The notes under the pieces are model-generated. The model worked only from the letters and a program-made list of their open reading frames with translations. It was not told the DNA's origin and searched no databases. The translations under genes and the position numbers were made by a program. A stretch of DNA of 63,864 nucleotides, filler included, from Bigelowiella natans CCMP2755 (taxonomy: Eukaryota; Protista; Cercozoa): the NCBI GenBank assembly GCA_000320545.1. It is 5 parts of 5 records of this genome, joined end to end, with 100 filler letters (N's around TTAATTAATTAA, not from the genome) between each part and the next. Parts side by side here need not be neighbours in the genome. Positions count along the whole stretch, not along the records: positions 31,913 to 57,092 come from ADNK01002420.1; 4 more parts are not named here. The stretch is one strand, 5' to 3'. This document shows, piece after piece, positions 31,813-61,800 of the stretch; position 1 is the first letter of the stretch, and each line of letters begins with the position of its first letter.

Positions 31813-31912
31813 NNNNNNNNNNNNNNNNNNNNNNNNNNNNNNNNNNNNNNNNNNNNTTAATTAATTAANNNNNNNNNNNNNNNNNNNNNNNNNNNNNNNN
31901 NNNNNNNNNNNN
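31813..31912. other. Artificial contig linker
   Basis: N-TTAATTAATTAA-N. Confidence 0.97.
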
Positions 31913-32428: not shown

Positions 32429-33291
32429 ATATATATGGCCCTGCGAGAGGTGTCTGATTTATTGTCTGCGATAATTGTTGTTCCCACCCACGCGCGCAAC
32501 GACATCACAGATGCAATATCCCGGTGGTATTCCCCTGAATTACCAGCAGCGGCCTGCCAACCCAGCAATGTTCCAAGCTCCGTTTCAGCAGAACTATAAC
32601 AACAACAGCGGCAGCGGTAACAACCCCTTCTTCTAAGTTAGCGGTATTATTAAGCGGCGTTAAAGAGGGAAACTCTCGATCGATCGATGTAGCCCTGCTT
32701 TCCTGGCCTGGTGGCGATAATTCGTCATTGCTATTGAAGGTGGAGAGAGCCGGCAGCGGGGGGTGGGGGCTGCGGAGAACTGCTACATAATTTGCTTTGA
32801 CAATTTTGCATGCATGTATTCGTCTGGAGACGTACGAGGGAGTAGACTTTGCAATGTGTGCGCGCTTAAATGTTAGCTGCAGTGTAGATAGTTGCTATGG
32901 GCGGGGGGCAGTAAATATATGACTGACTGATACAAGTATTAATATTCGTACGACGATGAACGATCATGCATGCAACAATGCGCGCATGCATGCGTCATCA
33001 CATCAAATTGAACACGTGCACGCACGCGCATGACAAATGGCGCGCGTGCTAGCGGGTGTGTGCGCCTTCTAGCTAGCTAGCTAGCTGCTGTGCCATGATG
33101 TGCAACGCATGATTTGTATGCCTAGTTATTGCGTGCCATGTGTGTAGCTAGTCTGTAGATGCCATGTAGCTAGATGGCGCATGCGCTGTGTGTACATGGC
33201 GCTCGCCCATCTACAAAGATGAGACGATGCTGTCTTGTGTCATAAAAATGATGTCCACAGTGTAGATGTCGCGGCAATAACAACTAGCTAG

Positions 33292-33385
33292 TGTGAGTGG
33301 TTTTTGCCTTTGAACGTTATAACGTACCACTCTAGCACTCGTAGTTCGCGAACTACGAGTGGTTCAAAGGCAAAAACCACTCACA
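33292..33385. repeat. 94-bp foldback element: 24-bp perfect inverted arms around a 26-bp perfect palindrome (MITE-like)
   Basis: tgtgagtggtttttgcctttgaac ... cactcgtagttcgcgaactacgagtg gttcaaaggcaaaaaccactcaca. Confidence 0.9.
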
Positions 33386-34228
33386 ACTAGATGTGTCAGA
33401 TGTGTGACATGCATGCTAGCATGCATTTCCGCAAACAAAAAAAAATGTTTGTGCCTGCAGCTCTAGCTGTGTGTAGCACTGCGCACATGCAGTGTGCGCC
33501 TGCTCCAGTGCTAGCTAGCTGGCAGTCTAGCGGTCACGTGGCATTACTAGATTAATTTCGCCACGCTTGCACTGATCGACCTATCTGTCTAGCTGTGCTA
33601 GCTACATACTACATACATCGTACTAGTATAGACGATCCACTTCTCAAATAAAGAGTAGTAGTAGTTTCGATGACGAACAAGACGTACACTTAGCTAGTTA
33701 GCTGCCATGCAAGCTAGCGACGGGTTCTGCGGTTGGCATGTGTACAACAAAGAGTCTAGATCGATATCATTTGCAGAGACCGACGGATACAGCATTAATG
33801 ACCCTCATCTTACGCATCGTGCGCCCCGAAAGCCTTGTACATCTAGAATTTTGCCTATTACATAGACATCACTACTAATTCGTCGCTGTGGGTACATTAA
33901 TCGTCTATTAATTTTTTAAGGTTTAGCCTGTGATAGCATGAAGTAGTGTACACGTTTTCAACATCATTCTCTTGATATGCAGGTCGGTGTGGAAGTCAGT
34001 TGGGTCGTAGTGGGACCAGCCCGTCACACTATGGCCACAAAAGGCTTCGAGGCGCAGTGTTAATTACCAGAGTGCAACAGGCTAGCAGGATTGTGATAAG
34101 ACAATAATCGTTATTACTAAATCATGCTGAGTGACACAGTGCATACATTCTCCACGGTATTTCGTTCAACGAGCGACACAAAGCAGGCAATTGACTTAGC
34201 ACGTACACATGTTCCCGAAATCAATGGT

Positions 34229-35831: not shown

Positions 35832-36659
35832 ACCATCACAAGATGAAACTTGATGAGTGTGACCCTCCTGCCAACAGAGACGTTAAGACATCTTTGTTCG
35901 ACTGTGCAATGTGTGTTTTCTCTCTCTCAACTAGATCCATGAAAAAGAATTTGCTTAGATTCCTCGTTTTCTAGCAGAAAAGCGGAATCATGCAGGTGAT
36001 TGTCACAATCGTGCAGTCGAATTCAGCCACAGAATCCGAAGGTTCCAAGGCTGCACTGTCCAGCTGTGCACAAACTCTGCCATGATGACTGGCGTGGTCA
36101 ACGTGCAATCTTCTGCCAAACTCCCGCCCTTCTGGTCTGTTGTTGACATCCAACAAACGCGGCCGGCACTGGACTGTGCGGTCTTCGCGCTCTGGCGCAA
36201 GTGGCTCTCGATTTGGCCAACTCGCAATGCCGCGCGCACGTCTGGACTTGCACAATTCAACGCGCACGCTGCGCCAGCTAGTCAGCATGTCAGATGGCTA
36301 GATGGGGCATCGTGGCTCTGCTGCGGAACACATCTCAGCAATGATGACAGCACCATCTAGCTAGCTAGCTGTGCTCGATGACGTGCTGCGTGTGCTGCCT
36401 AGCTAGCTGGGTTGCATTTGACTAGCTAGCAGCTAGTTGATGTGAAAGCGCACGCACGTAGCAGTCTAGCAGTGTGTAGTCGTCTTGTAGCTAGCCACAG
36501 CTAGAGCTAGTGGTGCGCACTGCATTCATGCTAGCATGGCATCATCGCATCATCCAACGCAGGGCTAGCTTGAGAGTGCAAAGCATCCATAGACATGTAC
36601 GTTGAGTTAAATTTCTTGCGTCATTTCCGATCCATGCTGTCACAGCATTAATTGTCTGA

Positions 36660-42015: not shown

Positions 42016-42458
42016 AGCGGATGGGGGAGTTCGAATTATAAGCTCCTGCAAGTTCCTCAGTAATAAATCCCCGCTACTGACAGACATAAGGGCATTGGAG
42101 AAGTATTACGACAACAAAAATCGCCATGTCGTAACTTACGTATGCAGGACATCTGATGAGAAAAACTCTGAAACCATAGAATCTCGTCGATTCTACAACC
42201 AAATTCTTGCAACTAATTGAAAACGAAGGCCATTTCTATCCCAAAAAAAGGTCTTGCGGTGAACTTGGTGCTGAGAAATAAAATGGAGATATTTTGATCC
42301 GAAATTTTCAGATCTTGCCTTTGTTCAAATACCTGGAATGTACCAAAAACGGACAGAAATTCATATTTTTCACATGCTCTGAATCTGTCTCAAAGAGAAA
42401 ATCACCCGTGTTTTACTTTTTCTATGATGCTTGAACTCTGAATGCCCCTCAAAAAACA

Positions 42459-43690
42459 ATGGGGGCTACCAAATCAAGTGAGATCTCAGGCCTATCCCGC
42501 GAGGAGGTTGCGAATGCGATTTTCAGACACCTCGATGATGACAACAGCAAGGTTTGTGCGCATAAAATTCACTTTGCATCCAGATCTAGAGATATAACAT
42601 TTGCTTTCTCAGCGATTGGATGTGACGGAACTCGAGGGTCAGGGATGTGGAGACATGGTGAAGATGTACTTCGCAAACAGGGAACAAACTATGAACGAAG
42701 TTCAATTCGTAAACGCTTTGCTTGCAAAATGGAAACTTGGTAAATACAAAGTTAAAGCTATTTCTCAAGGAAAATAGTTATTTAACACAAACTGTTCTCT
42801 CCACAACACATAGATAAAGATCCAGAATACGAGAAAAAGGCCCTTCAACTCATCGAGACCGCTAAGTCGGTGAAGGTGGGAACTGCTGATGAAGAAAAGA
42901 AACTCTCGGTAATAACATTCACTTTGAAGATTGTGAAGCAATAAGTACGATATAGCAACCACTTCAACCATCTAACTACAGGAATGCAAAGATAAAGCTG
43001 AAATGTGTGGCCTTGTCTTCGAAGCTCTGGATGACGACAAGAGCGGGTGAGTGTTGACCGTTATCTTCATTGCGATCATGTGTCAGTATTTTTTCTCTTT
43101 AATAGATCTTTGGACCTAAAAGAAGTGATCAAGCAGCTGGATCCATACCATAAGAAAGCACAATTTGTCCTGGTGTGATTTTTGTGATCACTATAAATTT
43201 CAATCAAAATTTTTAAATGTACTTTGTGCACGGCATCTTACACTATGGTTTTTGATCTACAGAAAGAGGGTGGCCAGGTCGAGTATTCTATGAAATATTG
43301 GGAGGATATTTTCAAAGGATATGATAAGGTGGGTCGCGTTTGTTGATAACTTGAAAGCCACGAAGATTTCCATAACATTGTGTTTGTGTGTGATTTTTTT
43401 AGGATAAGAATGGCCACGTAAGCCAAAAAGAATTTACGTCTGCCATCGTTGAGAAATTCAAAGACAGTAATCACATAATCAAACTCTAACTGAAAGCGAT
43501 CAAATTTCTCTGAGTTTAACCTTAATAATTTGTTCTTGATTACACGGATGATATTTTTGGTGTAAATAATACCACAGAAGAGGAAAAATTATTTCTCTTG
43601 ATCCTTGCAAAGATGCTGAAGTCTGCCAATATGATCAATGCTGCTAAGGGAAAGAAGGGAGAGGCTGCAGAAGAAAAGAAGAAAGATTGA
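42459..43690 (+). CDS. N-myristoylated EF-hand calcium-binding protein, copy 1 (8 exons)
   Basis: MGATKSS start; EF loops DDDNSKRLDVTE, DDDKSGSLDLKE and DKDKNGHVSQKE; GT-AG introns; stop TGA 43688-43690. Confidence 0.85.
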
Positions 43691-44099
43691 AATCTTGTCC
43701 CCAAGTGTAATTCTATTACACTATTAACTTTCCATGGAGGCCATACGAACCAGTTTGCCGTTACAATATTGGGATAGCGCAAATTTGTGTTTATTTGAAT
43801 ATGCATTTTTGCACAGAATAACTGCATGGCATTCATACAATGGAAACCCTAATGTGCATTTTATATTTATTACACAGTAATGTCTACATGTCATTACGAT
43901 TCGAAAATTGGAGCATAGCATCAGTTAGCCATCGTGCCATTTGATGACAAGATGTGTAGCCGCATTTGACTGCAACCATGCGCACATGCTAAACGCACTC
44001 ATGCGCATAGAATCGAGCATTTCTACTTTTGTTGAAATCACAATCGAATGCTCCACCACTATTTAGCTACGCTAGCGCATAGCCACATGGGGTGGGCAA

Positions 44100-44556
44100 C
44101 AATCTGCTGTTGCACCTCTGAGCACTGCGAATTGCGATCGAGGGACACGTTCTAGCGTTGTTGAGATCAAGATCATTGGAAAGCACTGGAGCATGTTGCA
44201 AGCAAAAAGAGGTTCTATGCACAAGCAAAAGTGCCGATTTGATTGCAGTTGCAACACATCTTGACATCTGGAAAACGCATGTGTTGGACATCATTGTGGG
44301 CTCATCCAAGTTTGAAGCGCATGACCACCGCTCCAGCTGCTAGCTAGCTAGCTAGCGCTAGACCGCTAGATCGGCACAAACTAGCAAACAGCAATGCTGG
44401 AATGCTGGAATGCTAGAATGGTCGATCACATCTAGACATCACTAGATCGGCACAAAATTGTCGCCCATCCACATGTGATGTGACCCCCTAGCCCCACTGT
44501 TGACCCACAAAAGCATCGGCAGCTGAAACAGCACGCACCTTCTTTTTTGTCATCTG

Positions 44557-44593
<37 letters not shown>

Positions 44594-46080
44594 TCTCTCT
44601 CCCTCCCTCTCTCTCCCGACCGCGAGCATGCAGCCAACAAAGCAGTTCTCTGCTTCTCTCATGTGTGTTTTTGCAACTGTCTGTCCAGTCTGCCCAGCTG
44701 TGTGGCGGCGTGACATGGACTTGAACGTTCGTTGATTCCTGCCCCGTTCTGTCATCTCTTTTTCCCAAATGGACATGGAACTTTTTCTCCATTTCTGCTT
44801 TCCTCAACGTTCATCCCCTCTCAAGGCAGCGGCTCTGTCATGGGCATCATTGCCACGTCAGACTGAATTGAAGAAGCGCCACCTGTCCAGCAATGCCGGT
44901 GGGCCGAATTTCAAAAAATTCGGACTCATTCAAGATTCGCTCGATCCCTGCGACAAAGATCTTCCATGTCGCAGCATGGAAATGGATCACGTTTGGAATC
45001 GGGGATTCTGTTTCAATGGGATGGTGTTTTTGGCCCTGCGACAACACAAAGTGTCCAGATTTTCTAGTTTTCAAATGTCTCGACATTGAGCATCATCTGC
45101 TCACACGCAGAGGGGCTCCAGGGGCTGTTTCAAGATCTTGGCATGTCCTCGTCGTGCGCCCAAAAATTTCATGAAAGAGTGCCGCCATGCTGCTACCTGT
45201 GCGCCTTCAGCGACGGCGAATGTCAATTTTTGTGCGGGTTGTTTTCCTGGACCTCAATTGCAGACACAGTGACAGTGCATGCATCACGTGTGTGGTGTTG
45301 CATGTCCATCATTGCACCTAGATGTCAACGTTGCACATCATCCCAACAGACGCATGAAGTCCATGACACCAACAGACACATGAGACGGCAATGAAGTGAT
45401 CAAATCTTTTCAATGGTCATCCCAATGTGGCCATGCAAATCAGTGGCTGCAGCGCTCACATTGCATCTGCTAGTTTGTTGCGTTTCCACCATCAGCACGC
45501 ATGCCAGCATGGTCATCGAGCGCGTGGTCCGCTTTCCGTGTGCGGGAACATCACAGCCAGTGGAAGTAGACCGAGATTCCAACTCCGTTCTGAACCAATG
45601 CACAGCTAGACAAGAGGCAATCAATGGTTTGTTGGGACGTGCATGAGCATGTGAGCGACATCGATGACCCGATGCGATCGAAATTGCAACTTGAGGGCAA
45701 TTCCAGAATTGCCAATTGGGACAGACGTTCTGTTGTGTTTGTTGGGGAGGAAGGGGTCAAAGACTAGCTAGTCAGAAGGGGGGCCAGGTCCATGAGCGAT
45801 TGCGTGAACTTGCTGCGTCACAAATGGGCTCAAGTGGTGGATGGCACGTGAAAACGTTCGCCAAGTTGTCAGCGATGGTGTTCCACCCACTGAAACACTG
45901 GACGAGGTCACATCTGGACGTCGTTGATCTGTCTCCACGTCTTCTCCTCATCGCTGATCCATGCCACTCAGTGGTTCTGCATGCATCTGTCACGGTGGTC
46001 CCTTTTTGTTCAATTCTTGACCGAATCACTGTTGGCTGGTGGGACACGGCACCCGGGTGAGCCACTAGAGCTAGAGAGAG
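44100..46080. other. TpA-depleted intergenic island; remaining TA almost only in CTAG
   Basis: Manual count about 23 TA: 20 in CTAG, the others CTAT, CTAC and GTAG. Confidence 0.88.
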
Positions 46081-46189
46081 GGGAACAAATGCCACCCTCG
46101 CAACCGGAAAAATTAATAATGTTTGAGAATTCAGGATTCCCGCACATTCCTCATCCCAACAAGATGTGCTAATGCACTGCTGACAAGCT

Positions 46190-46515
46190 TGTAGCGCGTA
46201 CCACTACGCGGGCACAAGTCACGTGCGACAACAAAGGGGTTGTCGCGGATATAGAATATAGATAACGTAGATATTAATACAGCATAGGCACGTGGGTTCC
46301 GGCGGGACTCATGGCAGCACACCGGAAGTGTGCTGCCCCACGTGCGGCGGCATTCGCGAAAGCTTCGCGAATGATTACGCAGTGCACGATTTAATAAAAA
46401 TATAATCTTTAATAAAAATAAACACAACTCTTCAAAAGGAAGCAAACGTGCCTTTCCCCCCCCCTGCCTACTTGTGCACGTAGCGCCTCGGCCTGTGAAC
46501 ACCTTACGCGCAACA
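46190..46515 (+). repeat. 5' LTR
   Basis: TG...CA ends with a 10/11 terminal inverted repeat; AATAAA signals inside. Confidence 0.96.
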
Positions 46516-46554
46516 ACCTTTGGCTTCCACACACGGGAAACGATTTGACTAACA

Positions 46555-49500
46555 ATGTCACAGCAGCTAGAAGAACAGCAGGACTTTGGCTCGCAGGCCG
46601 TGCAAGGGCACGAGCAGAAACAGGAAAGGAAGGGCGATACGGACGCTAAGGAAGGAGGAGGAACACCTCCACAGGCACCGCCGGGACCAGCACCCGGGAT
46701 TAAGAAAGCAGATGCAGCAGCAGAGGCACTGGAGAACTTCTACGAGGCGGACGACGAGGACGTGGCCGCCGAAAGCAAGAAGGTCGTAATGGCATTACGA
46801 GCCTTGCGACCCAGGGCGAGCAACTACGCCAAACTGAAAGTATCGATAGAATACAAGTATCAGACACATGATGTTTGGGCAGCTATCATGCAGGACATCA
46901 TGGATTACGAAGCAGACTTACCTCCAGAGTGGGCAGCTTTGTTTAGGAACGACGGGGGTCTGGGCGCCTCGCGGGGGACGACCCAGAGCACCGTCAAGCA
47001 GCAGCAGCCGGTACAGCGGAACACCCAGTTCATGTCTGTTAAAACAGCACCGGTTATGATAACGAAATACAACGGGAAAAGAGGTGAGGCAAGGAGGTGG
47101 TGGAAGAACGCTAGGAGTATACTCTGCGACTTTACCCCTAACCCCACCGAAAACGACAAGCTCAAATGGCTAGCTATAATAAAGCAAGCCATGGACCTTT
47201 ACGAGACAGGCAGGACCCGGATCAGGCAGCTAGAGAAAATACACACTACAGTTAGTGGGCTACGAGACGTTGAGGCGATAATGAAGGCTTTTGTAAATGA
47301 ACAGGATGCTAACTCCCTACCCCAGGCTATTAGAAAATACAGAGCAATGATGCAGCATGAGAGAGAACCTGTTAGAGACTTTGCCACGCGCTTCCAGGAT
47401 ATGATCGACGAACTACATGATTTTAATTACAACACAGGTGATGATCAGGCAAGGTTTGAAGAGTTCAAGTTAAAGATAAAGGAATCCACTTACGTTACGG
47501 AGAAAGGCTACACCACGATGGAGGCAGCAGTGCAGGCTATATCCCTACGCGAGCAGGAGCAGGACCGCAAGTTTACCAGCCCTAAGGTACCTGGCATAGG
47601 AAACATTAACGCTATTAAGCCGCAGCGAGACTGGTACAAGGACAGGGAAGGTAACCGACGTTGCGGATACTGCTCACGTAAAGGGAAACACACCGCTAAA
47701 GACTGCAGAGACAGGAAAGAAGGACGACCCAGGATGACGATCAGGCAGCTCAACGAACACTACGAGAAGTTAAAGAGAAAGAAAGGCAGAGGACAAGGAT
47801 ATAACAACAGCAAATGGCAAGGCAGCAACAACGGGAAGAACAATAAATATAAGAACAAAAAGCAGAACAGTATCAATGCTATACAGCAGCAGATAAACGG
47901 AATATTAGATCACCTTAAGCAGGCGCCGACGAAGACAGCAGTACCAGCAACGCAGGACCAAGACAAGCCCATGACCCTAGACGACATAAAGAACTTAGGA
48001 GTATGCAACATTAATGACGAAGACGCTAACAGGACTATCAAAGTTGCTATGACCAAGGTTAAAGTTAAAGACAGCTACGGAGACTACAAGAAACTACCTG
48101 CCCTTTGGGATAGTGGCAGCATGCCGAAGTCCTTCATAAGCCTAAGCACAGTAAGAAGGTTAGGACTATTGGATCAAGTGACTAAGAAAGAACGTAAATA
48201 TGCTCAAGCAGACGGAAGCTCTTCCATGAAGACCGTCGGTGAGCTAATGCTAAAGCTACAGATACCTGGCAGCGACGCGGAGACCCAAATCAAGACCCGA
48301 GTAGCCATGACTTTATCCATGGAACTACTCCTCGGACAGGATGCCCTAGAAAAATTAGGGGGGATCATATCATTCTACAATCACAAGATATACTTTGCTA
48401 AGTTGCCAAAGAAGTCAGGCAGGACCATCAGCCAGAACATGATACGGCTTGACGAGTGGACCTCTGAGTCAAGCGTTAATGCGTTAGAGTTTATGGACCT
48501 AGCGGACAACAAGCTACCTACACCTACCGAGCTACGGAAGAAGAACCCCGGCAAGACCATCCGACAGATAACGGAGCTACTGGACAAGACCCCCCCAGCT
48601 GATGATTGGGATATCGACAAAGGCAAAAAGTACATTAATAAAATATTAAACGAGAAGTACTCTGACATCACCAAGCCGACGACGAAGCCCTCCAGCAAGC
48701 TTACCCCAGTAAAGATCGAGCTAAAGAAGGGATACGAAGAGTGCATCATCAATGACCCAGAACATAGGCGACCGGAAGCGGACTGGGAAAAGATAGAGTG
48801 GCAGATCAATGAATGGGCAAAGGAAGGGAAGATAGAGCCAAGCAACTCACCATGGAACGTGAGACATGTGCTAGCTAAGAAACCTACTTACCCTTTCTTC
48901 CGCCTGGCGCACAACTTCATCCGCCACAACCGAGTAATAAAGAGGATCCAGACACCTACACCAAGGATAGATGACGTTATTGAACACGTCATAGGATACA
49001 AATACTACTCTTCCCTAGATAAAAATGAATCATACATGCAGACACCCATCCACAAAACCTCCCGCCCCATTACCGCGTTCTCCAGCAGGCACAGGAAGTG
49101 GCACTTCGTCGTATTCCCTTACGGCCTAAGCATATCAGGGGATGCGTTCAGTAGTCAGAACTACAGGGCATACACACATGATGGGATGGCGTCTGTGTTG
49201 TGGGTGTTTGTGTTTGTGTATGTGGATGATGACATAATATGTACCAACACAGTCGTCGCTCAGATCTTCCTCCTGGAAAATATATTTATTAGGTTTGCAC
49301 ACTTCGGTTTTACTATTAGACTGCAGAAGTGTACATTCCTAGCTACAAGAATCAAGTGGTGTGGATATTACCTGGAGCAAGGCCGCATCACCCCAAACCC
49401 CGAGAAAGTAGCAGCACTACAGCAAGCCCCTAAACCTAAGAATGCAAAGGAGTTAAAGTCATTCTTGCAGACTGCAGCTTGGATACTACGTAGGTTCTCC

Positions 49501-51528
49501 CCTACCTACGCTAGGACTGCAGCTGCTTTTACTACTGCTTACCGGAAGGAGAACTCTGTAGGCCTCAGCTTCGCTAAGGTGTGGGCCAAGGCTGGCCTTG
49601 ATGCCCACTTCGATAACCTAATAAAGTTATGCAGCAACACCCTATTGAATGCTAAGCTAGACACTACTAGACCAGCTACCCTATGGACAGACTGGTCTAA
49701 GCTAGGTATGGCTGCTGTACTTACCCAAGACCAGCAGATCATACGGGTGTGGGGCAGGGCCTGCACAGCAGCTGAGGCCAAGTACAGCCCTACAAAAGGA
49801 GAGTATAAAGCCATGACTGAGGCGCAGAGGAAACTAAGATACTACCTGCTGTCGGTGCCCAGCTTCACCTTAATGACTGACCACAAGCCCCTCCTAGGCA
49901 TCGACCGCAAGCTCGAAGCGCCTAACGATGAGTATGCAGCTATGAGGGCGGACACGGAAGAGTTTAGGGACAAGAGGACAGTGGTCTACGCACCAGGAGA
50001 CAAGCAGCTTGCTGACTATTTCAGCAGGCTGTTCGAAAAGAAAGTCCCTACCCAGGTCACCCCTATGGTTAACGCGATTACCTTCGAGGACGGCGACTTC
50101 CTGCCTGAGCCAGAGGAGCTCCAGCACCTTCAAGAACACCTGGATAAATACAAACACAAGCATGAGGTACTTAGTGATAGGATATATGTATACACTAATA
50201 ATGTTAGGCGTACCTACGTGCCACGGCGGACCAGGGGAGCCCTTCTCTTTACCGCCCATGGACCTGCACACGTAGGAGAAAACCATATCACTGCTCTACT
50301 CTACCATTACTACTGGCCCTACAAGCTAAAAGAGATAAGGACATACCTGCGTGGCTGCAGGTGCTCCAGCTTGAAGGCGGCAGGCGTCGCCACCAAGGAG
50401 TCCAGCAAGAGCCGTGCATCTAAGAAAATCAAAGCAAGGAACTTCTTAGATATCGTGCAAATTGATGTTTATAAGTACGATGGCTATCACTACCTTACCT
50501 TCGTTGATGTGGCCACTGGAAAGTGCTGGGTTAAAAAGATTATCAAGGTCAACGTTGCTAAGAAGAACAAAGGCTTATATAAGCAGAGGCTTACTAACTG
50601 CTACCGTACCTGGGAGTCTGAGCTCCAGGCTATCCCTGATGAAGTTAGCATAAACAAGATACCAAAGAAGTTACATGTGGATAATGAGACCTCTCTTCTA
50701 CAGCTACCACACCCTAATATTGATGCCTCACCTGTATACTATGCCCAGTCCAACTCCAAGGTAGAGCGACTCCACCGCACCTTGGCCAACCTAAGCAGGA
50801 TAAATAGCACCACACCAGACAAGATACAAGGGTTAGTAAACGACACCTTCACGTCTGGGGGAGGTATCAAGGATAAGGAGAGGGAAGAAGGCGACGACAA
50901 CGACGACGATACCGAGAGCGAAGACGAGAAGGTCCCGTACGATGGCCGAGTTCTAAAGGAAGGACAGTATGTTAGGGCCAAGGTAAATCTGAGATCGAGA
51001 AATAAACAAGACCCCTTCTGGGGTGGCGTTGCAAAGGTTACCGAGAGGAAGGGGAGGAAGCAGTACTACATCTATGATGGGAACAGGGTCACCTTGCGCC
51101 ACATCAGTCACCTAAAGAATTATGATATCGGTGAGAAGCTCCTAGAGGATGTTAAAGTAAACCCTACTGTGTGGGAGCGAGCAATGCCTTGTTTAGGACC
51201 CCGACCTAAGTTCGATGTGGAATATGGAAACAATAAGGTCAGGGTGAACGACGATTGGCGCATGAAGATTGTCTATCTAGGCTACCCTGGATTACGAAAT
51301 ATGGAGAGGGTAGCTATGAAAATAAAGGACGGAAAATATCAGCTACTCTACCTAGCTGTTCCCGACTTACCCTTTGAGCACTGGTATAAGGTCCTGGGGG
51401 ACCTTGATGCAGAGGGCTGGTATGGACACGAACCTAAGGACGAAGGTGAGTTCTGGGTAAGCGACAAAGGAGATAAGGTTAGAGAGGAATCTATTACCTG
51501 GTGGTTGGTGAAGTTCCGAAAGCGATGA
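46555..51528 (+). CDS. Gag-Pol polyprotein, 1657 aa (Gag zinc knuckle, protease, RT, RNase H, integrase, extra C-terminal domain)
   Basis: CGYCSRKGKHTAKDC; LWDSGS; SPWN...YVDD; TDWSKLGMAAVL...YSPTKGE...TDHKPL; QIDV...FVDVATG...HVDNE...SNSKVER. Confidence 0.96.
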   Translation: MSQQLEEQQDFGSQAVQGHEQKQERKGDTDAKEGGGTPPQAPPGPAPGIKKADAAAEALENFYEADDEDVAAESKKVVMALRALRPRASNYAKLKVSIEYKYQTHDVWAAIMQDIMDYEADLPPEWAALFRNDGGLGASRGTTQSTVKQQQPVQRNTQFMSVKTAPVMITKYNGKRGEARRWWKNARSILCDFTPNPTENDKLKWLAIIKQAMDLYETGRTRIRQLEKIHTTVSGLRDVEAIMKAFVNEQDANSLPQAIRKYRAMMQHEREPVRDFATRFQDMIDELHDFNYNTGDDQARFEEFKLKIKESTYVTEKGYTTMEAAVQAISLREQEQDRKFTSPKVPGIGNINAIKPQRDWYKDREGNRRCGYCSRKGKHTAKDCRDRKEGRPRMTIRQLNEHYEKLKRKKGRGQGYNNSKWQGSNNGKNNKYKNKKQNSINAIQQQINGILDHLKQAPTKTAVPATQDQDKPMTLDDIKNLGVCNINDEDANRTIKVAMTKVKVKDSYGDYKKLPALWDSGSMPKSFISLSTVRRLGLLDQVTKKERKYAQADGSSSMKTVGELMLKLQIPGSDAETQIKTRVAMTLSMELLLGQDALEKLGGIISFYNHKIYFAKLPKKSGRTISQNMIRLDEWTSESSVNALEFMDLADNKLPTPTELRKKNPGKTIRQITELLDKTPPADDWDIDKGKKYINKILNEKYSDITKPTTKPSSKLTPVKIELKKGYEECIINDPEHRRPEADWEKIEWQINEWAKEGKIEPSNSPWNVRHVLAKKPTYPFFRLAHNFIRHNRVIKRIQTPTPRIDDVIEHVIGYKYYSSLDKNESYMQTPIHKTSRPITAFSSRHRKWHFVVFPYGLSISGDAFSSQNYRAYTHDGMASVLWVFVFVYVDDDIICTNTVVAQIFLLENIFIRFAHFGFTIRLQKCTFLATRIKWCGYYLEQGRITPNPEKVAALQQAPKPKNAKELKSFLQTAAWILRRFSPTYARTAAAFTTAYRKENSVGLSFAKVWAKAGLDAHFDNLIKLCSNTLLNAKLDTTRPATLWTDWSKLGMAAVLTQDQQIIRVWGRACTAAEAKYSPTKGEYKAMTEAQRKLRYYLLSVPSFTLMTDHKPLLGIDRKLEAPNDEYAAMRADTEEFRDKRTVVYAPGDKQLADYFSRLFEKKVPTQVTPMVNAITFEDGDFLPEPEELQHLQEHLDKYKHKHEVLSDRIYVYTNNVRRTYVPRRTRGALLFTAHGPAHVGENHITALLYHYYWPYKLKEIRTYLRGCRCSSLKAAGVATKESSKSRASKKIKARNFLDIVQIDVYKYDGYHYLTFVDVATGKCWVKKIIKVNVAKKNKGLYKQRLTNCYRTWESELQAIPDEVSINKIPKKLHVDNETSLLQLPHPNIDASPVYYAQSNSKVERLHRTLANLSRINSTTPDKIQGLVNDTFTSGGGIKDKEREEGDDNDDDTESEDEKVPYDGRVLKEGQYVRAKVNLRSRNKQDPFWGGVAKVTERKGRKQYYIYDGNRVTLRHISHLKNYDIGEKLLEDVKVNPTVWERAMPCLGPRPKFDVEYGNNKVRVNDDWRMKIVYLGYPGLRNMERVAMKIKDGKYQLLYLAVPDLPFEHWYKVLGDLDAEGWYGHEPKDEGEFWVSDKGDKVREESITWWLVKFRKR

Positions 51529-51579
51529 AGGTCTAAGGGAATAAGGAAGGAAGGAAGGAGCAACGTGACTTGGGGGAGG

Positions 51580-51905
51580 TGTAGCGCGTACCACTACGCG
51601 GGCACAAGTCACGTGCGACAACAAAGGGGTTGTCGCGGATATAGAATATAGATAACGTAGATATTAATACAGCATAGGCACGTGGGTTCCGGCGGGACTC
51701 ATGGCAGCACACCGGAAGTGTGCTGCCCCACGTGCGGCGGCATTCGCGAAAGCTTCGCGAATGATTACGCAGTGCACGATTTAATAAAAATATAATCTTT
51801 AATAAAAATAAACACAACTCTTCAAAAGGAAGCAAACGTGCCTTTCCCCCCCCCTGCCTACTTGTGCACGTAGCGCCTCGGCCTGTGAACACCTTACGCG
51901 CAACA
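51580..51905 (+). repeat. 3' LTR
   Basis: Matches 46190-46515. Confidence 0.96.
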
Positions 51906-52191
51906 AGCTGGATACGCCTCAAGCAAGTGGGCAGGGCGGGTCGGGCTTGCGAGGTGGATTGATGAAACTCGAGAGAGTCACCCGAGATTTTCTTCCATTA
52001 GCAAAAAACTCAGATAAATATCATCCAAAAAGCTCAGATCTTGCCTTCCTTTCCAAAGCCGGGAACGTACCAAAAACGGACAGAAATTCATATTTTTCAC
52101 ATGCTCTGAATCTGTCTCAAAGAGAAAATCACCCGTGTTTTTACTTTTTCTATGGAGCTTGAACTCTGAATGCCCCTCAAAAAACAAAACA

Positions 52192-53474
52192 ATGGGGGCT
52201 GCGCAAACCACAGAGATCTCAGGCCTATCCCGCGAGGAGGTTGCGAAGGCGATTTTCAAACACCTCGATGATGACAACAGCAAGGTTTGTGCGCATAAAA
52301 TTCACTTTGCATCCAGATCTAGAGATGTAACATTTGCTTTCTCAGCGATTGGATGTGACGGAACTCGAGGGTCAGGGATGTGGAGACATGGTGAAGATGT
52401 ACTTCGCAAACAGGGAACAAACTATGGACGAAGTTCAATTCGTGAACGCCTTGCTTGCAAATTGGAAACTTGGTAAATACAAAGTTAAAGCTTTTTCTCA
52501 AGGAAAATAGTTATTTAACACAAACTATTCTCTCCACAACAATACATAGATAAGGATCCAGAATACGAGAAAAAGGCCCTTCAACTCATCGAGACCGCTA
52601 AGTCGGTGAAGGTGGGAACTGCTGATGAAGAAAAGAAACTCTCGGTAATAACATTCACTTTGAAGATTGTGAAGCAATAAGTACGATATAGCAACCACTT
52701 CAACCATCTAACTACAGGAATGCAAAGATAAAGCTGAAATGTGTGGCCTTGTCTTCGAAGCTCTGGATGATGACAAGAGCGGGTGAGTGTTGACCGTTAT
52801 CTTCATTGCGATCATTCGTCAGTATTTTTTCTCTTTAATAGATCTTTGGACCTAAAAGAAGTGATCAAGCAGCTGGATCCATACCATAAGAAAGCACAAT
52901 TTGTCCTGGTTGAAAGAAACCACTATGAGTTTGACCTGAAATTTGCAATGTACCCCTTACATAATCATTTTGATCTGCAGAAAGAGGGTGGCCAAGTCGA
53001 CTATTCTATGAAATATTGGGAGGATATTTTCAAAGGATATGACAAGGTGAATACTGTTCGATCGCAAACTAGAAAGCCACGAAGATTTTGATAACACCCT
53101 CATTATCTGCATCGTCGTCATCAACACTGCCATCTCCATCTGTTGGCTTGATACAACATTGTTCTCTGCAAATATTTCTTTAGGATAAGAACGGCCACGT
53201 ATGCAAAAAGGAATTTTCGTCTGCCCTCATCGAGAAATTCAAAGACAGTAATCACATAATCAAACTCTAACTTGGAACCGATCTAGTTTCGTTGAAATTC
53301 ATTGTTATAGTTCATTTTCAGTGCTCTGATAACATCTTTTGCTACGTAAATGATATCACAGAAGAGGAAAAATTATTTCTCTTGATCCTTGCAAAGATGC
53401 TGAAGTCCGCCAATATGATCAATGCTGCGAAGGGAAAGAAGGGAGAGACTGCAGAAGAAAAGAAGAAAGATTAA
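52192..53474 (+). CDS. N-myristoylated EF-hand calcium-binding protein, copy 2
   Basis: Paralog of 42459-43690 with the same exon structure; MGAAQTT start; stop TAA 53472-53474. Confidence 0.85.
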
Positions 53475-54260
53475 AACGTTTTCCACAAGTGTATTTCTAT
53501 ATTATAAAATATCAGCTGTGACATACATAATCTAAGCACTGTAGCCGCAGCTTTGCACAGCTACATTAGGATGACTATTAATAGAATGCAATGTCTTCAT
53601 TCATCATTACATCCGTCTCCTATACAGAAGTTGTTGTCCATCATGTGGCCCTTGAGCGAGGCCATGCACCCAATTTACCGATGCAACATTGGCTAAATTT
53701 CTGCACACACTTGAATTTTCATTTTGCGCTGGATCGTTGTATAATGTTTAGATGTTGTAAGATTGGTCGTTAAGAGCTCAAAGCTAGCAGGGAGTGCGGC
53801 ATGCCTCGCTTGTAGTCATCTATCTAAAGCCATATATTAGCAATGCAATTATGGCAAGACAATCAACATGTACGTGCAGTCGCTCCTGCTGCCCGCCGGC
53901 CGCGCACACATGCGCGTAACTAGCTACGCTACGCTGCTAGCTGGGTCTAGAAGTGCACACATACATACAGGCGCGACATGCACCCCTAGGTATAAATTAC
54001 TAATTCGCAAAATTTTGTCAAGTTTGACCAATTGTATCTAGCAATCAGCAATGATGATACTGTAGTCACAGCAGCTCTGGAAATTGATGTTGTGTGGCAA
54101 GTCTTAGAATCTGCTAGATGATCATCTAGGCAACGTTTTGATTTGCACATTCGCGCCGCGAGACTAGCGTAGCAGCGAGAGAATGACCTCCGGGCCGGCG
54201 CACATTTTTTTGGCTACGATGCGACACATTACATGCTGTAGTGCCGCGCACAAATGAAAA

Positions 54261-54621
54261 CACAACCAGCAGAAACTTGTAACATCAGCTTTGCGTGCAT
54301 GGTGGCCGCACCAAACTTCATCAAAAAGCTTGGAAAACCACAATAAAACATTCCACTTTGCATATTATGCATGTGCACTCCGGTGGACTCTGACGAGCTG
54401 CTGCATGCTAGCCTGGTGGCTTCCAGTGCGCTCAAACACCTTCACAACCAGCAGAAATTTGCAACATTGGCTCTGCGAGCATGCCAGCATGGCGGCCGCA
54501 CAACATTTTTTTTTTTCAAAAAGCTTGGAAAACCACAAAAAAAAACATTGCCATGCATTGCGAATGCACTCTGGTGGACTCTGACGAGCTTCTGCTGGCT
54601 TCCAATGCGCTCAAACACCCT
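54261..54621. repeat. Diverged tandem duplication of about 180 bp in a TpA-poor region
   Basis: Both units begin cacaaccagcagaaa and share tcaaaaagcttggaaaaccacaa, ggtggactctgacgagct and tgcgctcaaacacc. Confidence 0.85.
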
Positions 54622-57092: not shown

Positions 57093-57192
57093 NNNNNNNN
57101 NNNNNNNNNNNNNNNNNNNNNNNNNNNNNNNNNNNNTTAATTAATTAANNNNNNNNNNNNNNNNNNNNNNNNNNNNNNNNNNNNNNNNNNNN
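57093..57192. other. Artificial contig linker
   Basis: N-TTAATTAATTAA-N. Confidence 0.97.
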
Positions 57193-57300: not shown

Positions 57301-58088
57301 TTTATTCATAATTCATTGGCATCTATAGTGTGCCATTGTTCGGTTTCGTAAGTCGCAAACGGTCCAATGGGGCCAAAACTGATGTATCAACAAGCAATGC
57401 TAAAATTTCACACACTGTTTTGTAATCATCCTTGCTAGCTTGTGATGAAGCGTTTGTGTGGTTCATTTGTGATGCTCGTAGATGGTGTGCTGCATGTATA
57501 AGTGCGCACATGAGCAATGGGTCTAGCTAGTTGCATGTGTGCACATGCATCGTGTCACGATGCGATGCAATCATCAATGCTGCAATCTCGCAATGTGATG
57601 TCATGATGTGATGTGATGAACTCGCATGCATTGTTGACTGTGAACGCGGTGACACAGAGACACGTGTGAACACTGAATGATTGTCATGCAAAGAACACGT
57701 GGACAGGTCACATTGCCATGCGCAGCCATGTGCAATGCATGCAACATGCATGCCCCATCTCATGCAACGTACAGAAGAAATCAGACGAGTAGTGATTGCA
57801 CAATTAAGCGACTGCTGCGCGATCGAAATGCGCGACATTTCAAGACTCAAGACCGATCGATCGAAACAATGACATGCAATGAGATTGCATGATTGCACGA
57901 AACGCATCTAGCTAGTAGTGTGGGGAGCGAATGCATCTCATTGCTAGCTGATCCACAGGCTGTTATTAGGTGCATGCATGCTGCATATGGACACCAATTT
58001 GTAGACGCTATGATCGCTGTATATACATAGCGAATATATATGCCAAACGGACTCATAGCCGCGCACAAGTGAAATATTGCCCACCGTG

Positions 58089-59519
58089 ATGATCACGCGC
58101 AGCGCGCGTGGCAACAACAAGCACCAGACACCCAAAAAGGGAAGAAAGCACAAAAAGAACCAACACGCAACGTTGGATCTCGATTCAGAATGCAATGATG
58201 ACGACTGTGGCTCTGATAGGAAAAGTCATGATCTGTCTCAATGCCTTCGCGAAGTTACTTCAACACTGTCTGCAACAATGGAACGCAAAGAAACTCCTCA
58301 GTGGAACACAATGAAAAAATTGTGTGAAATGCTGACCACAATGGTCCAGTTAGTTGATGAGAAACAACAACAATTGCAGCAAGATCAAAAAGACATGCAG
58401 GAGGAAAACGCTGGGCTTAAAAACAAATTACTGAAACTTGAAGAAGAACTGACTTATATCAAGGAACATCAGAAGAATGGCACAATGGAAGCTCAACCCT
58501 CCTCGATGCAACGGACCTCGAGAACTTACGCTAGTGTCACAACCTCATCACGCGCTGATGAACCTCATGGTCGAGATAAATATCCTGAAGCAGAAGTACA
58601 AAGACTAGCTGAGCGAAAGAATAGCCAGAGTTGGCAAGTTCCAAAAAGTCACGCCAGGAATCAAAGGAAATACAACCGGAAGTATAAACAGAACGTGCTC
58701 ATATTGGAACTTGACAAAAAAGCCATGCTGCAAGCGGGGGGCGCCATTATGGCCTCCGGCGACCCATGTCGCACTGTTCTCACTGGCAAAAAAAAACATG
58801 CCAACGAACCAACAAGTGAGGAAACAAACACAGCAGATCCGAGGGATGAAAACCGCGACACACTGACAGAAGTTAACACCGAGGAAGAAGAGACTAAATG
58901 CCTAGCCGGAAAGAACGTAGAGGATTTGAACCCATCCAGTGAAAAAAAAGATGTTCCAGATATTGGGAAAAACCTGTCCAAAATAACTCCAAAGTTGATC
59001 GATGCACTAGGATTGAACGAATTCCAAATGCACGTAGCTTTCCAAGCGAAATATGGGAAGGACTTTCAAGGAATCCAATTCAAATCTAGAAATAAAACCC
59101 ACCTAAAAGTGTTCTTCAAAGGCTCCAGAGAATCTAAGATGGATGCTTACCTGGATCTGCTTAACACCGAACATCAGTTAGGACAAGGATCATTCCTTCC
59201 CTCACTCTTTGGATTAGTGACCACAGTCAGAGCAGCTAAGTCAAGGCCAAGTAAGCACTCTGTAGTTCTGAGAGGCCCAAGGCTGGGACCTAACGAGCAG
59301 GAAAAATCAACACGAATTGGAATCATCAAGCAGATAATCGAAACCAACATCGATGTAAAAGTCGCAGCAATAGAACCTCTCGGCAAGGGCCCTCTACTTC
59401 AGCTGTTTGTGCACTCGCATGAAGAGGCCACCAAACTGCTGAATTCACAAATCACATATCAGGGCAGCTACCTACGATTCAGGGCATATGAAAACAGAAG
59501 GACACGTAAATATGGTTAA
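58089..59519 (+). CDS. LINE ORF1 protein (coiled coil plus RRM-like C-terminus)
   Basis: About 476-aa ORF directly upstream of ORF2; heptad-rich QQDQKDMQEENAGLKNKLLKLEEEL; TYASV motif. Confidence 0.75.
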   Translation: MITRSARGNNKHQTPKKGRKHKKNQHATLDLDSECNDDDCGSDRKSHDLSQCLREVTSTLSATMERKETPQWNTMKKLCEMLTTMVQLVDEKQQQLQQDQKDMQEENAGLKNKLLKLEEELTYIKEHQKNGTMEAQPSSMQRTSRTYASVTTSSRADEPHGRDKYPEAEVQRLAERKNSQSWQVPKSHARNQRKYNRKYKQNVLILELDKKAMLQAGGAIMASGDPCRTVLTGKKKHANEPTSEETNTADPRDENRDTLTEVNTEEEETKCLAGKNVEDLNPSSEKKDVPDIGKNLSKITPKLIDALGLNEFQMHVAFQAKYGKDFQGIQFKSRNKTHLKVFFKGSRESKMDAYLDLLNTEHQLGQGSFLPSLFGLVTTVRAAKSRPSKHSVVLRGPRLGPNEQEKSTRIGIIKQIIETNIDVKVAAIEPLGKGPLLQLFVHSHEEATKLLNSQITYQGSYLRFRAYENRRTRKYG

Positions 59520-61653
59520 TCATTTGAATCTCCCCTACTACTACCAAAACATACGCAGTAAAAACGGAACTGAACAAGGCAGGCAAAGAATAAATAGAAG
59601 ATATAATATGTTAACAGAAATGATAACCACCAACAACATCGAACTCGCCTGGTTTGGGGAAGGCCGCCTCAAAGAATCGGAGAGGCTGCATCCTCCAGCG
59701 GGATACGAAGTGATTCGGACGAGCGGCTCCTCTGGGAGCTTTGGATTAAGAAAAAAGAACACAGATATAATTCATATACCTATAGATGATAACAATTACG
59801 ATATTAGTTTTTTCATACACAGCATTGAAAAATATGCTGTCATAATGGTGTACCTCCAGCCACACCAAAACATCTCACATCTGAAAGAGAGATTAGATTT
59901 CATAATGAACATCATTCGGAAACAGAAATGGAAAAAATACATCATCGTGGGGGACACTAATGCTAAACACTCCACCTACGATGTCCGAAACCAAGAAGAT
60001 AGACGTGGCAGATACCTACACCAGTGGTTGTCGGATAACAACATCATGATGGTCAACCCTGGGGAAGCCACATATTTCAGAAAAGGAAACACAAGCACAC
60101 TTGATCATGTGCTGTGCTCCTCAAACTTCGCACACCAAATAGAATATCAGATGGCCAACACCACGACAAGTGACCATTTCGGTATCCACTTTGGAAAACC
60201 TGTGGCAATCCATCAACAGACTTCACCAATGATATATGACATCGACAAATTCGATGTAAAACGATTTGACGAAAAATTGAATAATATTACCGAACGCTTG
60301 CACCAGCGCATACTAAACGTTCAATCGGAGGCTGATGCAAAAAAGCTTGAACGCTGGTTCTGGGACTTTACCGGAAAAGCTTTTAATAGCTGCACACCTA
60401 AAAAACGACAACGTTGGAGTCCAATCAAGCCATACCAAAACGACAAAAAATATAAATCCATCAAAGATCAACAAGAAAAATTATTTAGATCCTTGAAACA
60501 CGAAAGGAAATTTCGGAAGAGAAAATTATTAGAAACCAAGATCCAAGAAATCAACGCCGAACTTGAACGAACCACCGAAACCCTTCAGTACGAAGCATGG
60601 CAATTATTCTTGTCTCGCTTCGAAAAATACAACAATGGGAATCATACCAGAATGCTGTACAAATTATTCCAAAAATCCAGAGGGCGGGATAAATTCGGAG
60701 GACTCGATGGCGAAACCTCTGAAGAAAAAAAATGTGAAGTGTGTGTTGCCAAATGGAAACATATCTACAAACCACACCCGTCAGACAAGAAAAATCGAAC
60801 CTTTCACGCTGAAACTGAGGCCTGGAGAAATACCTTCAGGAAAAATGAAGACAAAAAGATCCACAGTGTTAATTCATACAACAGAGATTTTTCTATGCAT
60901 GAACTAAGAAACGTGATCAACAAAGCATCACCGTACAAGTCTCCTGGCGATGATGGTGTTCACCTAAACATGTTGAAAAAAAGCAAGAAACTCCATCAAC
61001 TGTGGTTAGCTACATTCAACACGTCATATAGATGGGGTACCCGAGATGGCTCACGTAAGGCGGCCATTTTTTGTCTCATCCCTAAGGCCAACAAAGAACT
61101 TAACACCCCTCTCAACGGGAGAACGATTTCTCTCCTACAAATAGCTTCAAAAATAGAAGACAAACTAATAGAACAACGGCTCCGCGAAGCTATACCCCCC
61201 AAAAACATTAGCATACATCAGTATGCATTCATGAAAAATCGATCCTGCGAAACTGCACTCACAAAGATGACGCAGTCAATCGAGGATGGAGTATATAACA
61301 AAAAGCTTGCAGCCATCCTGTTGTTTACAGATGCCTCTAAAGCTTATCCAAAAGCCTGGCATTCCGGCATGATACGCAAGTTACATGACAAATACGGAAT
61401 ACGAGGCTCGCTATTGCTGTGGATCGACGACTGGCTCAGAGATCGTACCGCCAGATTCAGATTTGGCAATACTCTCTCTGAGCACATGAACCTTGGGAGC
61501 GGCGTCCCCGAAGGATCATCTCTCAGCTGTTTCCTTTTCATAACCTATTACGACATTTACGAACATATTACCAACACAGATTCCAAATATACTGTGACGA
61601 CGTTACCCCCTACAAATTGTTTTTCGCCAAACCGATGGGGAAAATGCAGATGA
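59488..61653 (+). CDS. LINE ORF2 (APE endonuclease plus reverse transcriptase); frameshift just before YCDD
   Basis: YQNIRS, GDTNAKH, TLDHVL, SDH; KSPGDDG, IPK, RTISLL, QYAF, DASKAY, GVPEGSSLS; YCDD at 61590-61601 lies in another frame. Confidence 0.93.
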   Translation: MKTEGHVNMVNHLNLPYYYQNIRSKNGTEQGRQRINRRYNMLTEMITTNNIELAWFGEGRLKESERLHPPAGYEVIRTSGSSGSFGLRKKNTDIIHIPIDDNNYDISFFIHSIEKYAVIMVYLQPHQNISHLKERLDFIMNIIRKQKWKKYIIVGDTNAKHSTYDVRNQEDRRGRYLHQWLSDNNIMMVNPGEATYFRKGNTSTLDHVLCSSNFAHQIEYQMANTTTSDHFGIHFGKPVAIHQQTSPMIYDIDKFDVKRFDEKLNNITERLHQRILNVQSEADAKKLERWFWDFTGKAFNSCTPKKRQRWSPIKPYQNDKKYKSIKDQQEKLFRSLKHERKFRKRKLLETKIQEINAELERTTETLQYEAWQLFLSRFEKYNNGNHTRMLYKLFQKSRGRDKFGGLDGETSEEKKCEVCVAKWKHIYKPHPSDKKNRTFHAETEAWRNTFRKNEDKKIHSVNSYNRDFSMHELRNVINKASPYKSPGDDGVHLNMLKKSKKLHQLWLATFNTSYRWGTRDGSRKAAIFCLIPKANKELNTPLNGRTISLLQIASKIEDKLIEQRLREAIPPKNISIHQYAFMKNRSCETALTKMTQSIEDGVYNKKLAAILLFTDASKAYPKAWHSGMIRKLHDKYGIRGSLLLWIDDWLRDRTARFRFGNTLSEHMNLGSGVPEGSSLSCFLFITYYDIYEHITNTDSKYTVTTLPPTNCFSPNRWGKCR

Positions 61654-61700: not shown

Positions 61701-61800
61701 NNNNNNNNNNNNNNNNNNNNNNNNNNNNNNNNNNNNNNNNNNNNTTAATTAATTAANNNNNNNNNNNNNNNNNNNNNNNNNNNNNNNNNNNNNNNNNNNN
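61701..61800. other. Artificial contig linker
   Basis: N-TTAATTAATTAA-N. Confidence 0.97.

What the first reader, a model, noticed from the sequence alone, without database searches (positions are those of the whole stretch)
44100..46080. Context rule of the mutator: TAG is resistant, so CTAG is the surviving TpA
Seen: about 20 of 23 residual TA lie in CTAG, and the other three (CTAT, CTAC, GTAG) are half-sites. The pattern recurs at 35900-36600. A short repeat at about 44393-44420 reads aatgctgg/aatgctgg/aatgctag. Inference: the edited base is A in 5'-TA(A/C/T). CTAG presents TAG on both strands and so decays last. This is a defined, enzyme-like specificity rather than compositional drift.
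Basis: partly seen in the sequence, partly recalled or inferred. Interest (0 to 1): 0.88.

Follow-up and report, generated by a model that had tools for sequence, protein, structure and literature searches.

The report
Flank fingerprint of algal TA mutator
In this alga's silent DNA almost every TA step has been lost except inside CTAG, likely because the recently described TA-to-TG/CA mutator is slowed both by a C before and a G after the TA, a fingerprint that would help identify the unknown enzyme.

Summary
It survives masking (14 of 17); the background share is 3.3%. The host is a Bigelowiella-like chlorarachniophyte. Its TpA->TpG/CpA hypermutation is already in a 2026 preprint, whose main text gives no flank rule. 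The predicted order CTAG >> half-site > DTAH holds. The stated rule, that TAG is never edited, does not. Half-sites exit about equally through both strands (CTGH 61, CCAH 70; strict rule expects 66% CTGH, p=4e-6). Two of three polarised half-site edits in the patch hit a TAG adenine. A model in which 5' C and 3' G each slow editing fits better. CTAG is also above background density, so some was gained, partly by slippage. Earlier scan notes found a related but different fingerprint in diatoms. Verdict: a useful refinement of a known mutator, not a new system.

The parts
43895..46114 (.). TpA-depleted patch; no DTAH between these positions
   Evidence: 2219-bp gap between DTAH sites
43895..44100 (.). 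Partly edited edge: 10 half-sites and 1 CTAG survive after the last DTAH; begins 2 bp after a poly(A) site at 43893
   Evidence: poly(A) loose end in run X15 and drop of X21 read depth
44341..44489 (.). Cluster of 11 CTAG including a tandem array of four
44393..44416 (+). Three-copy 8-bp repeat; two units carry CTGG, one CTAG
45412..45462 (-). Edited copy of a very high-copy short repeat; all five TA of the homologous copy at 53529-53579 read TG or CA here, two of three polarisable half-sites through the TAG-context adenine
53529..53579 (+). Less edited copy of the same repeat (hairpin-forming), used to polarise changes
35884..36600 (.). Second patch with the same hierarchy (18 CTAG, 5 half-sites, 1 DTAH in 35900-36600)
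5877..8136 (.). Most edited tract: zero TA including CTAG, and ApT also depleted

Best explanation
The patch is likely an old target of the chlorarachniophyte TpA mutator (predicted to be a host DNA adenine deaminase), and its surviving TA steps likely reflect a two-sided flank preference rather than TAG immunity. Shown: TA is gone except in CTAG and a few half-sites, TG/CA is in excess, homologous copies differ by TA versus TG/CA, and half-sites leave through both strands. Inferred: A in x-T-A-y is turned into G on either strand; C at x and G at y each lower the rate roughly 3-5-fold, so a half-site is slowed on both strands (one A has the 5' C, the other the 3' G) and CTAG, where both A's have both, is nearly untouched until the dose is very high. 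Surviving CTAG is then topped up by slippage of the 4-bp unit and by ordinary C-to-T changes of the abundant CCAG/CTGG. The enzyme and the chemistry (A-to-inosine) are taken from the preprint's hypothesis and are untested.
For: Loss-rate ranking over 12 hand-drawn patches: GTAT/ATAC 1.48, ATAT 1.29, GTAA 0.91, GTAC 0.88, TTAA 0.76, ATAA 0.68, CTAT 0.50, CTAA 0.38, CTAC 0.24, CTAG about 0. The same order appears in 300-bp tiles binned only on DTAH share. Likelihood fits: symmetric model beats the 3'-G-only model by 16-17 AIC units in the finding alone and 12-24 in pooled patches; with both factors free they come out equal in the pooled fits (5' C 0.17-0.29, 3' G 0.18-0.27; 0.31-0.42 with an extra CTAG term). 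CTGH:CCAH is 61:70 in the finding, 217:210 pooled; simulated strict rule gives CTGH share 0.58-0.73 on five background ancestors. The finding's CCAH share 0.52 exceeds all 30 overlapping 2-kb background tiles (mean 0.33, max 0.48). GTAC, equally GC-flanked, is not spared, so plain duplex stability is not the cause. CTAG is absent where editing went furthest. Direction TA->TG/CA is shown by mutation accumulation in bioRxiv 10.64898/2026.01.13.699255.
Against: Ancestral composition of each patch is unknown and sites are not independent, so AIC gaps are indicative only. Telomere variants are 5 TCAGGG and 0 TTGGGG (two runs of units), and in patches TAG lies next to CAG 8 times (7 places) and next to TGG 0 times versus 24 and 31 in background (p=0.005); both favour exit away from the TAG adenine. 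Adding a CTAG-specific protection term improves pooled fits by a further 7-11 AIC units, so two multiplied factors alone may not explain CTAG. Only three half-sites in the patch could be polarised. In the finding alone the fitted factor is 0.06, not 0.2-0.4, so its size is poorly fixed. Only one 64-kb window was available.
Confidence: 0.5

Rival explanations
1. CTAG as a whole palindrome is shielded (for example by a methyl mark or a bound protein), on top of a weaker flank effect.
For: Fitted CTAG rate goes to 0 and a palindrome term gives the best pooled fit; CTAG share in patches 49 of 106 versus 0.25-0.32 in background; symmetric exits at half-sites are expected.
Against: Palindrome-only model fits worse than the symmetric model by 3-5 AIC units in the finding and 18-25 pooled because half-sites are also spared; CTAG is lost in 5877-8136. 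No methylation data for this host found; chlorarachniophyte virus motifs in the passages read do not include CTAG.
Confidence: 0.22
2. One reading: only the base 3' of A matters; A in TAG is resistant or strongly slowed, 5' C has no effect.
For: Half-sites decay at roughly 0.4 of the DTAH rate; telomere variants 5 versus 0; TAG-CAG neighbours 8 versus 0; 35900-36600 alone has CTGH share 0.60.
Against: CTGH 61 of 131, p=4e-6 against 0.66 and 0.005 against the most lenient 0.58; CCAH share rose; TAG-context edits in repeat copies (two in the patch, one at 54443-54619 versus 54261-54440, and A>G at 53543 in 10 contigs of run X1); worse AIC than the symmetric model in every fit.
Confidence: 0.15
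3. No flank preference in the TpA mutator; a second C-to-T process (CC->CT, or CAG->TAG after methylation) keeps regenerating CTAG.
For: CC/GG O/E is 0.37-0.82 in patches against about 1.0 in background, and C-flanked CTAG is rare (7 of 114 versus 32 of 73); CTAG is above neutral expectation (O/E 1.8-5.5).
Against: At pyrimidine triplets that TpA editing cannot touch there is no CC deficit (odds ratio 1.02 in the finding, 0.89 pooled, p=0.37; only 35884-36598 shows 0.38). CC->CT would drain CCAH into CTGH, which is not seen; CAG->TAG would refill DTAG as much as CTAG (14:18 versus 3:61).
Confidence: 0.08
4. Compositional artefact: (CTAG)n microsatellites or CTAG-ended elements laid on TA-poor DNA.
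For: 8 of 19 gaps between CTAG are 12 bp or less; many contigs elsewhere align to the CTAG array at 33069-33086.
Against: 10 of 13 survivors are still CTAG after collapsing clusters (p=4e-13); isolated CTAG persist at 5-6 per kb while DTAH is 0; half-sites are spared too.
Confidence: 0.05

Closest known systems
TpA hypermutation in Bigelowiella natans (Mettrop et al., bioRxiv 10.64898/2026.01.13.699255; read parts 1-4 of 5 of the main text plus a word search; figures and supplements not seen)
   Same: Same lineage, TpA->TpG/CpA, patchy targets, 124 genome-wide clusters of TpA-poor, CpA+TpG-rich windows, an ADAT2 homologue as candidate enzyme.
   Different: Main text holds no 'CTAG', 'TAG', 'trinucleotide' or 'context' and reports TpA only. 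This patch has no shown viral origin; a flank hierarchy and ApT loss in the most edited tract are additions. Fig. 2B and Table S2 may hold flank data.
ADAR1/2 (passages of review PMC10661471)
   Same: A-to-I chemistry, 5' U/T preference.
   Different: Acts on dsRNA and its hot spot is 5'UAG, the context that is slowed here.
Amphioxus ADAT2/3 DNA deaminase (passages of PMC10354150)
   Same: tRNA-type deaminase able to edit A in nuclear DNA; the model for the preprint's candidate.
   Different: Reported DNA motifs are GAA (A) and TCG (C) with hairpin-loop preference, not TpA.
Fungal repeat-induced point mutation (recalled; named in the preprint's discussion)
   Same: Patchy, dinucleotide-specific genome defence by hypermutation.
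   Different: C->T at CpA, creates TpA; opposite direction.

Membership tests
B. natans TpA hypermutation (Mettrop et al. 2026) | Strong TpA depletion with CpA+TpG excess | tested here: met
   TA O/E 0.32 and 0.14 in the two 1-kb windows; strand-pooled CA/TG O/E 1.59; preprint cut-offs 0.43 and 1.52 (its formula not seen)
B. natans TpA hypermutation (Mettrop et al. 2026) | Cluster of at least three consecutive 1-kb windows | tested here: not met
   Patch is 2.2 kb; flanking windows have TA O/E 0.66 and 0.87. This is the preprint's counting rule, not a property of the mechanism
B. natans TpA hypermutation (Mettrop et al. 2026) | Changes are TA->TG or TA->CA transitions | tested here: met
   5 of 5 TA in the 53529-53579 copy read TG or CA in the patch copy; majority state of the family is TA at three of them, one is mixed, one is read from loose-end letters
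B. natans TpA hypermutation (Mettrop et al. 2026) | Host is a chlorarachniophyte | tested here: met
   H2B 98% identical to a Bigelowiella entry and 97% to Lotharella; species not established
B. natans TpA hypermutation (Mettrop et al. 2026) | Target is of viral or otherwise foreign origin | tested here: inconclusive
   9 of the patch's 28 open frames scanned: no Pfam hit above cut-off; no Rfam hit; holds one copy of a high-copy repeat
B. natans TpA hypermutation (Mettrop et al. 2026) | Ongoing elevated mutation rate | tested here: inconclusive
   No differences in the pieces covered by X1 and X7 contigs; few targets remain
B. natans TpA hypermutation (Mettrop et al. 2026) | Caused by an adenine deaminase | not testable with these tools
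   Hypothesis in the preprint; no genome held
ADAR-type editing | Prefers 5'UAG | tested here: not met
   TAG-containing contexts are the slowest versus ADAR hot spot 5'UAG
RIP | C->T at CpA, TpA gain | tested here: not met
   TpA lost, CpA/TpG gained

The most novel reading that the evidence does not exclude
The chlorarachniophyte mutator reads the TA step as a duplex site with a graded code (D-TA-H first, half-sites next, CTAG last, then ApT), and CTAG is spared by a host self-mark such as methylation, making this a eukaryotic adenine-editing defence with restriction-modification-like protection, confined to untranscribed DNA with a border at a poly(A) site.
Probability: 0.12. Interest if true: 0.8.

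Novelty: new variant of a known kind. Interest (0 to 1): 0.45.

Why it matters
The enzyme behind this A-to-G DNA defence is unknown. A flank fingerprint is directly testable on the preprint's de novo mutation list and on purified candidates; it already argues against an ADAR-like UAG preference and does not match the GAA motif reported for amphioxus ADAT2. The context hierarchy also gives a way to rank patches by editing dose, and to compare the chlorarachniophyte mutator with the one that earlier scan notes describe in diatoms, where TTAA is said to survive while here it does not. A natural TpA-specific DNA adenine editor would interest base-editing work.

Tried and rejected
No whole genome is held, so all counts rest on this window. 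A scan of metagenome contigs with a short motif of the high-copy repeat returned 21 loci, none similar to the window by blastn: chance hits, dropped. A general CC->CT mutator, suggested by low CC O/E, failed the pyrimidine-triplet test; the low O/E is likely due to purine-pyrimidine alternation and new C in CA. Simple duplex stability rejected because GTAC is not spared. TTAA->CTAG creation rejected by inference: the preprint saw only TpA changes and TTAA is among the fast-lost contexts. Pfam (20 frames) and Rfam gave no identity for the patch. Papers on DNA methylation searched for this host gave no methylome (find passages only: PMC5890265 none, PMC9998398 DNMT6 mention, PMC12344493 none, bioRxiv 2025.11.19.688996 viral motifs). 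Novelty searches: searches returned no other paper on a flank rule (listings only); the library lacks most subscription journals. The read-laying table for the repeat showed 40 of 59 rows, so exits at 53542 and 53562 could not both be read. Rows dropped before counts: masked microsatellites; CTAG within 12 or 30 bp of another; tract 5877-8136 left out of the likelihood fits; patch borders were drawn by hand except.

Full report
Observation. The counts are exactly as reported: 23 TA in 44100-46080, of which 20 CTAG, one CTAT, one CTAC, one GTAG; 18 of 24 in 35900-36600. Masking microsatellites and tandem CTAG leaves 14 of 17, and collapsing clusters leaves 10 of 13; background share is 71 of 2137, giving p from 4e-27 to 4e-13, and dinucleotide shuffles never exceed 6 CTAG. 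Contigs of two DNA runs match 43573-44550 and about 45405-46140 without a difference. The patch is wider than reported: no DTAH lies between 43895 and 46114.

Host and prior art. H2B is 98% identical to a Bigelowiella entry and 97% to Lotharella, so the window is from a chlorarachniophyte; the species was not established. bioRxiv 10.64898/2026.01.13.699255 (main text parts 1-4 of 5 read) shows by mutation accumulation in B. natans that two integrated viral regions mutate about 1000-fold faster, 230 of 231 changes being A->G or T->C and all of those on TpA, finds 124 TpA-poor clusters genome-wide, and proposes an ADAT2 homologue. A word search of the main text finds no CTAG, TAG, trinucleotide or context. 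Figures and supplements were not visible; Fig. 2B and Table S2 may bear on the flank question. So the mutator is known and only the flank rule is possibly new (searches).

Survival order. Over 12 hand-drawn patches, with microsatellites masked and clustered CTAG collapsed, relative loss rates are 0.68-1.48 for the six DTAH classes, 0.50, 0.38 and 0.24 for CTAT, CTAA and CTAC, and about 0 for CTAG. Tiles binned only on DTAH share give the same order. GTAC (0.88) and TTAA (0.76) are not spared, which rules out plain GC-flank stability and a general pyrimidine-TA-purine rule.

Strand rule. If A in TAG could not be edited, every lost C-TA-H would become CTGH and CCAH would not grow. Simulation on five background stretches gives a CTGH share of 0.58-0.73 under that rule and 0.46-0.55 under uniform or palindrome-protected editing. 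The finding has 61 CTGH and 70 CCAH (share 0.47; p=4e-6 against 0.66, 0.005 against 0.58). Pooled, CCAH rose from 0.347 to 0.415 (p=8e-4) while CTGH rose from 0.339 to 0.429, so about two fifths of half-site losses went through the TAG adenine. The finding's CCAH share is above all 30 background tiles. Direct evidence: a short repeat at 45412-45462 has a homologue at 53529-53579; summed contig depth there is about 149,000 against about 57-60 on single-copy DNA, so the family has thousands of copies by a rough reading. All five TA of the 53.5-kb copy read TG or CA in the patch copy; of three half-sites where TA is the family's majority state, two were edited at the TAG-context adenine and one at the TAC-context adenine; a fourth is ambiguous (45% C). 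A second pair (54261-54440 / 54443-54619) shows one exit each way at a TTAG. Likelihood fits prefer a model where 5' C and 3' G both slow editing over a 3'-G-only model by 16-17 AIC units in the finding and 12-24 pooled, and the two factors come out equal when free in the pooled fits.

Results against this reading. Telomere-repeat variants at 12587-12700 are 5 TCAGGG and 0 TTGGGG, in two runs. In patches TAG sits next to CAG 8 times and next to TGG never, against 24 and 31 in background (p=0.005), although GTGG as a whole did gain share in the same call. 35900-36600 alone has a CTGH share of 0.60. Ancestors are unknown, sites are not independent and n for polarised sites is three. A partial strand bias on top of the 5' C effect is therefore possible.

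CTAG excess. Pure survival would leave 1.4-3.6 CTAG per kb; the finding has 7.4 per kb masked and 5-6 per kb as clusters, other patches 7-21 clusters per kb. Some CTAG was thus gained. Eight of 19 gaps are 12 bp or less, pointing to slippage; ordinary C->T from CCAG/CTGG would add more once CTAG is a sink (inference from the preprint's AT bias of 2.65). I tested a dedicated CC->CT regenerator, prompted by low CC O/E, and rejected it: no CC deficit at sites TpA editing cannot touch (odds ratio 1.02 in the finding, 0.89 pooled). A CTAG-specific protection term still improves pooled fits by 7-11 AIC units; it may reflect this gain or a real shield, which is the main rival.

Dose and targeting. 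In 5877-8136 every TA including CTAG is gone and the ApT share falls to 0.15 against 0.36 in the finding (p=2e-11), so CTAG is slow, not immune, and a further context seems to follow. DTAH density drops from 53 to 5 per kb at a poly(A) site at 43893, and an intact LTR retrotransposon beginning at 46190 with 99.7% identical LTRs is unedited (TA O/E 1.06). The patch has no Pfam or Rfam identity in the frames scanned.

Comparison. It works like the published B. natans TpA hypermutation and meets its compositional and directional features; foreign origin, ongoing activity and the enzyme were not shown. The slow TAG context is opposite to the ADAR hot spot 5'UAG and TpA differs from the GAA motif of amphioxus ADAT2. 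Three earlier scan notes on diatom-like genomes describe survivors in TTAA/CTAG contexts (unchecked AI notes); here TTAA is not spared.

Verdict. Real, non-random, and a testable refinement of a mutator already in print. Interest 0.45.

Noticed in passing
window 5877-8136: 2.26 kb with zero TA, CTAG included; ApT is also depleted (share 0.15 versus 0.36-0.41; CATG most, GATC and CATC least), suggesting a second ApT->GpT/ApC context that the preprint's main text does not mention.
   Followed up: partly
window 43893-43895: The TA-poor patch starts 2 bp after a poly(A) site of the upstream spliced gene; DTAH falls from 53 to 5 per kb. One case only.
   Followed up: partly
window 46190-51909: Intact LTR retrotransposon (1659-aa frame with protease, RT, RNase H, integrase hits; LTRs 99.7% identical; apparent 4-bp target duplication) with normal TA content right beside the patch.
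   Followed up: partly
window 53535-53580 and 45412-45462: About 45-bp hairpin-forming repeat present in roughly thousands of copies by contig depth, with RNA reads on both strands; family not identified.
   Followed up: partly
window 12200-12776: Telomere array (26 TTAGGG, 5 TCAGGG, 0 TTGGGG) preceded by a TA-poor subtelomeric stretch.
   Followed up: partly
window 12778-12877, 31813-31912, 57093-57192, 61701-61800: Four artificial spacers (N runs around a 12-bp stop-in-all-frames linker): the window joins five contigs that need not be neighbours.
   Followed up: yes
window 17050-17900, 32960-33760, 57400-58000: Patches with strong purine-pyrimidine alternation (0.64-0.66) and excess palindromic tetramers (CATG, TGCA, GCGC; CTAG in the first two); 17050-17900 has near-normal DTAH and may be an old patch regaining TA.
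   Followed up: partly
window 42297-43716 and 52023-53500: Tandem duplicate (85-91% identical) of a small-intron gene with EF-hand-like motifs by eye; each copy is followed by TA-poor DNA.
   Followed up: no
window 58059-61653: LINE-like element with endonuclease and RT domains, TA O/E 0.58 without CTAG bias.
   Followed up: no
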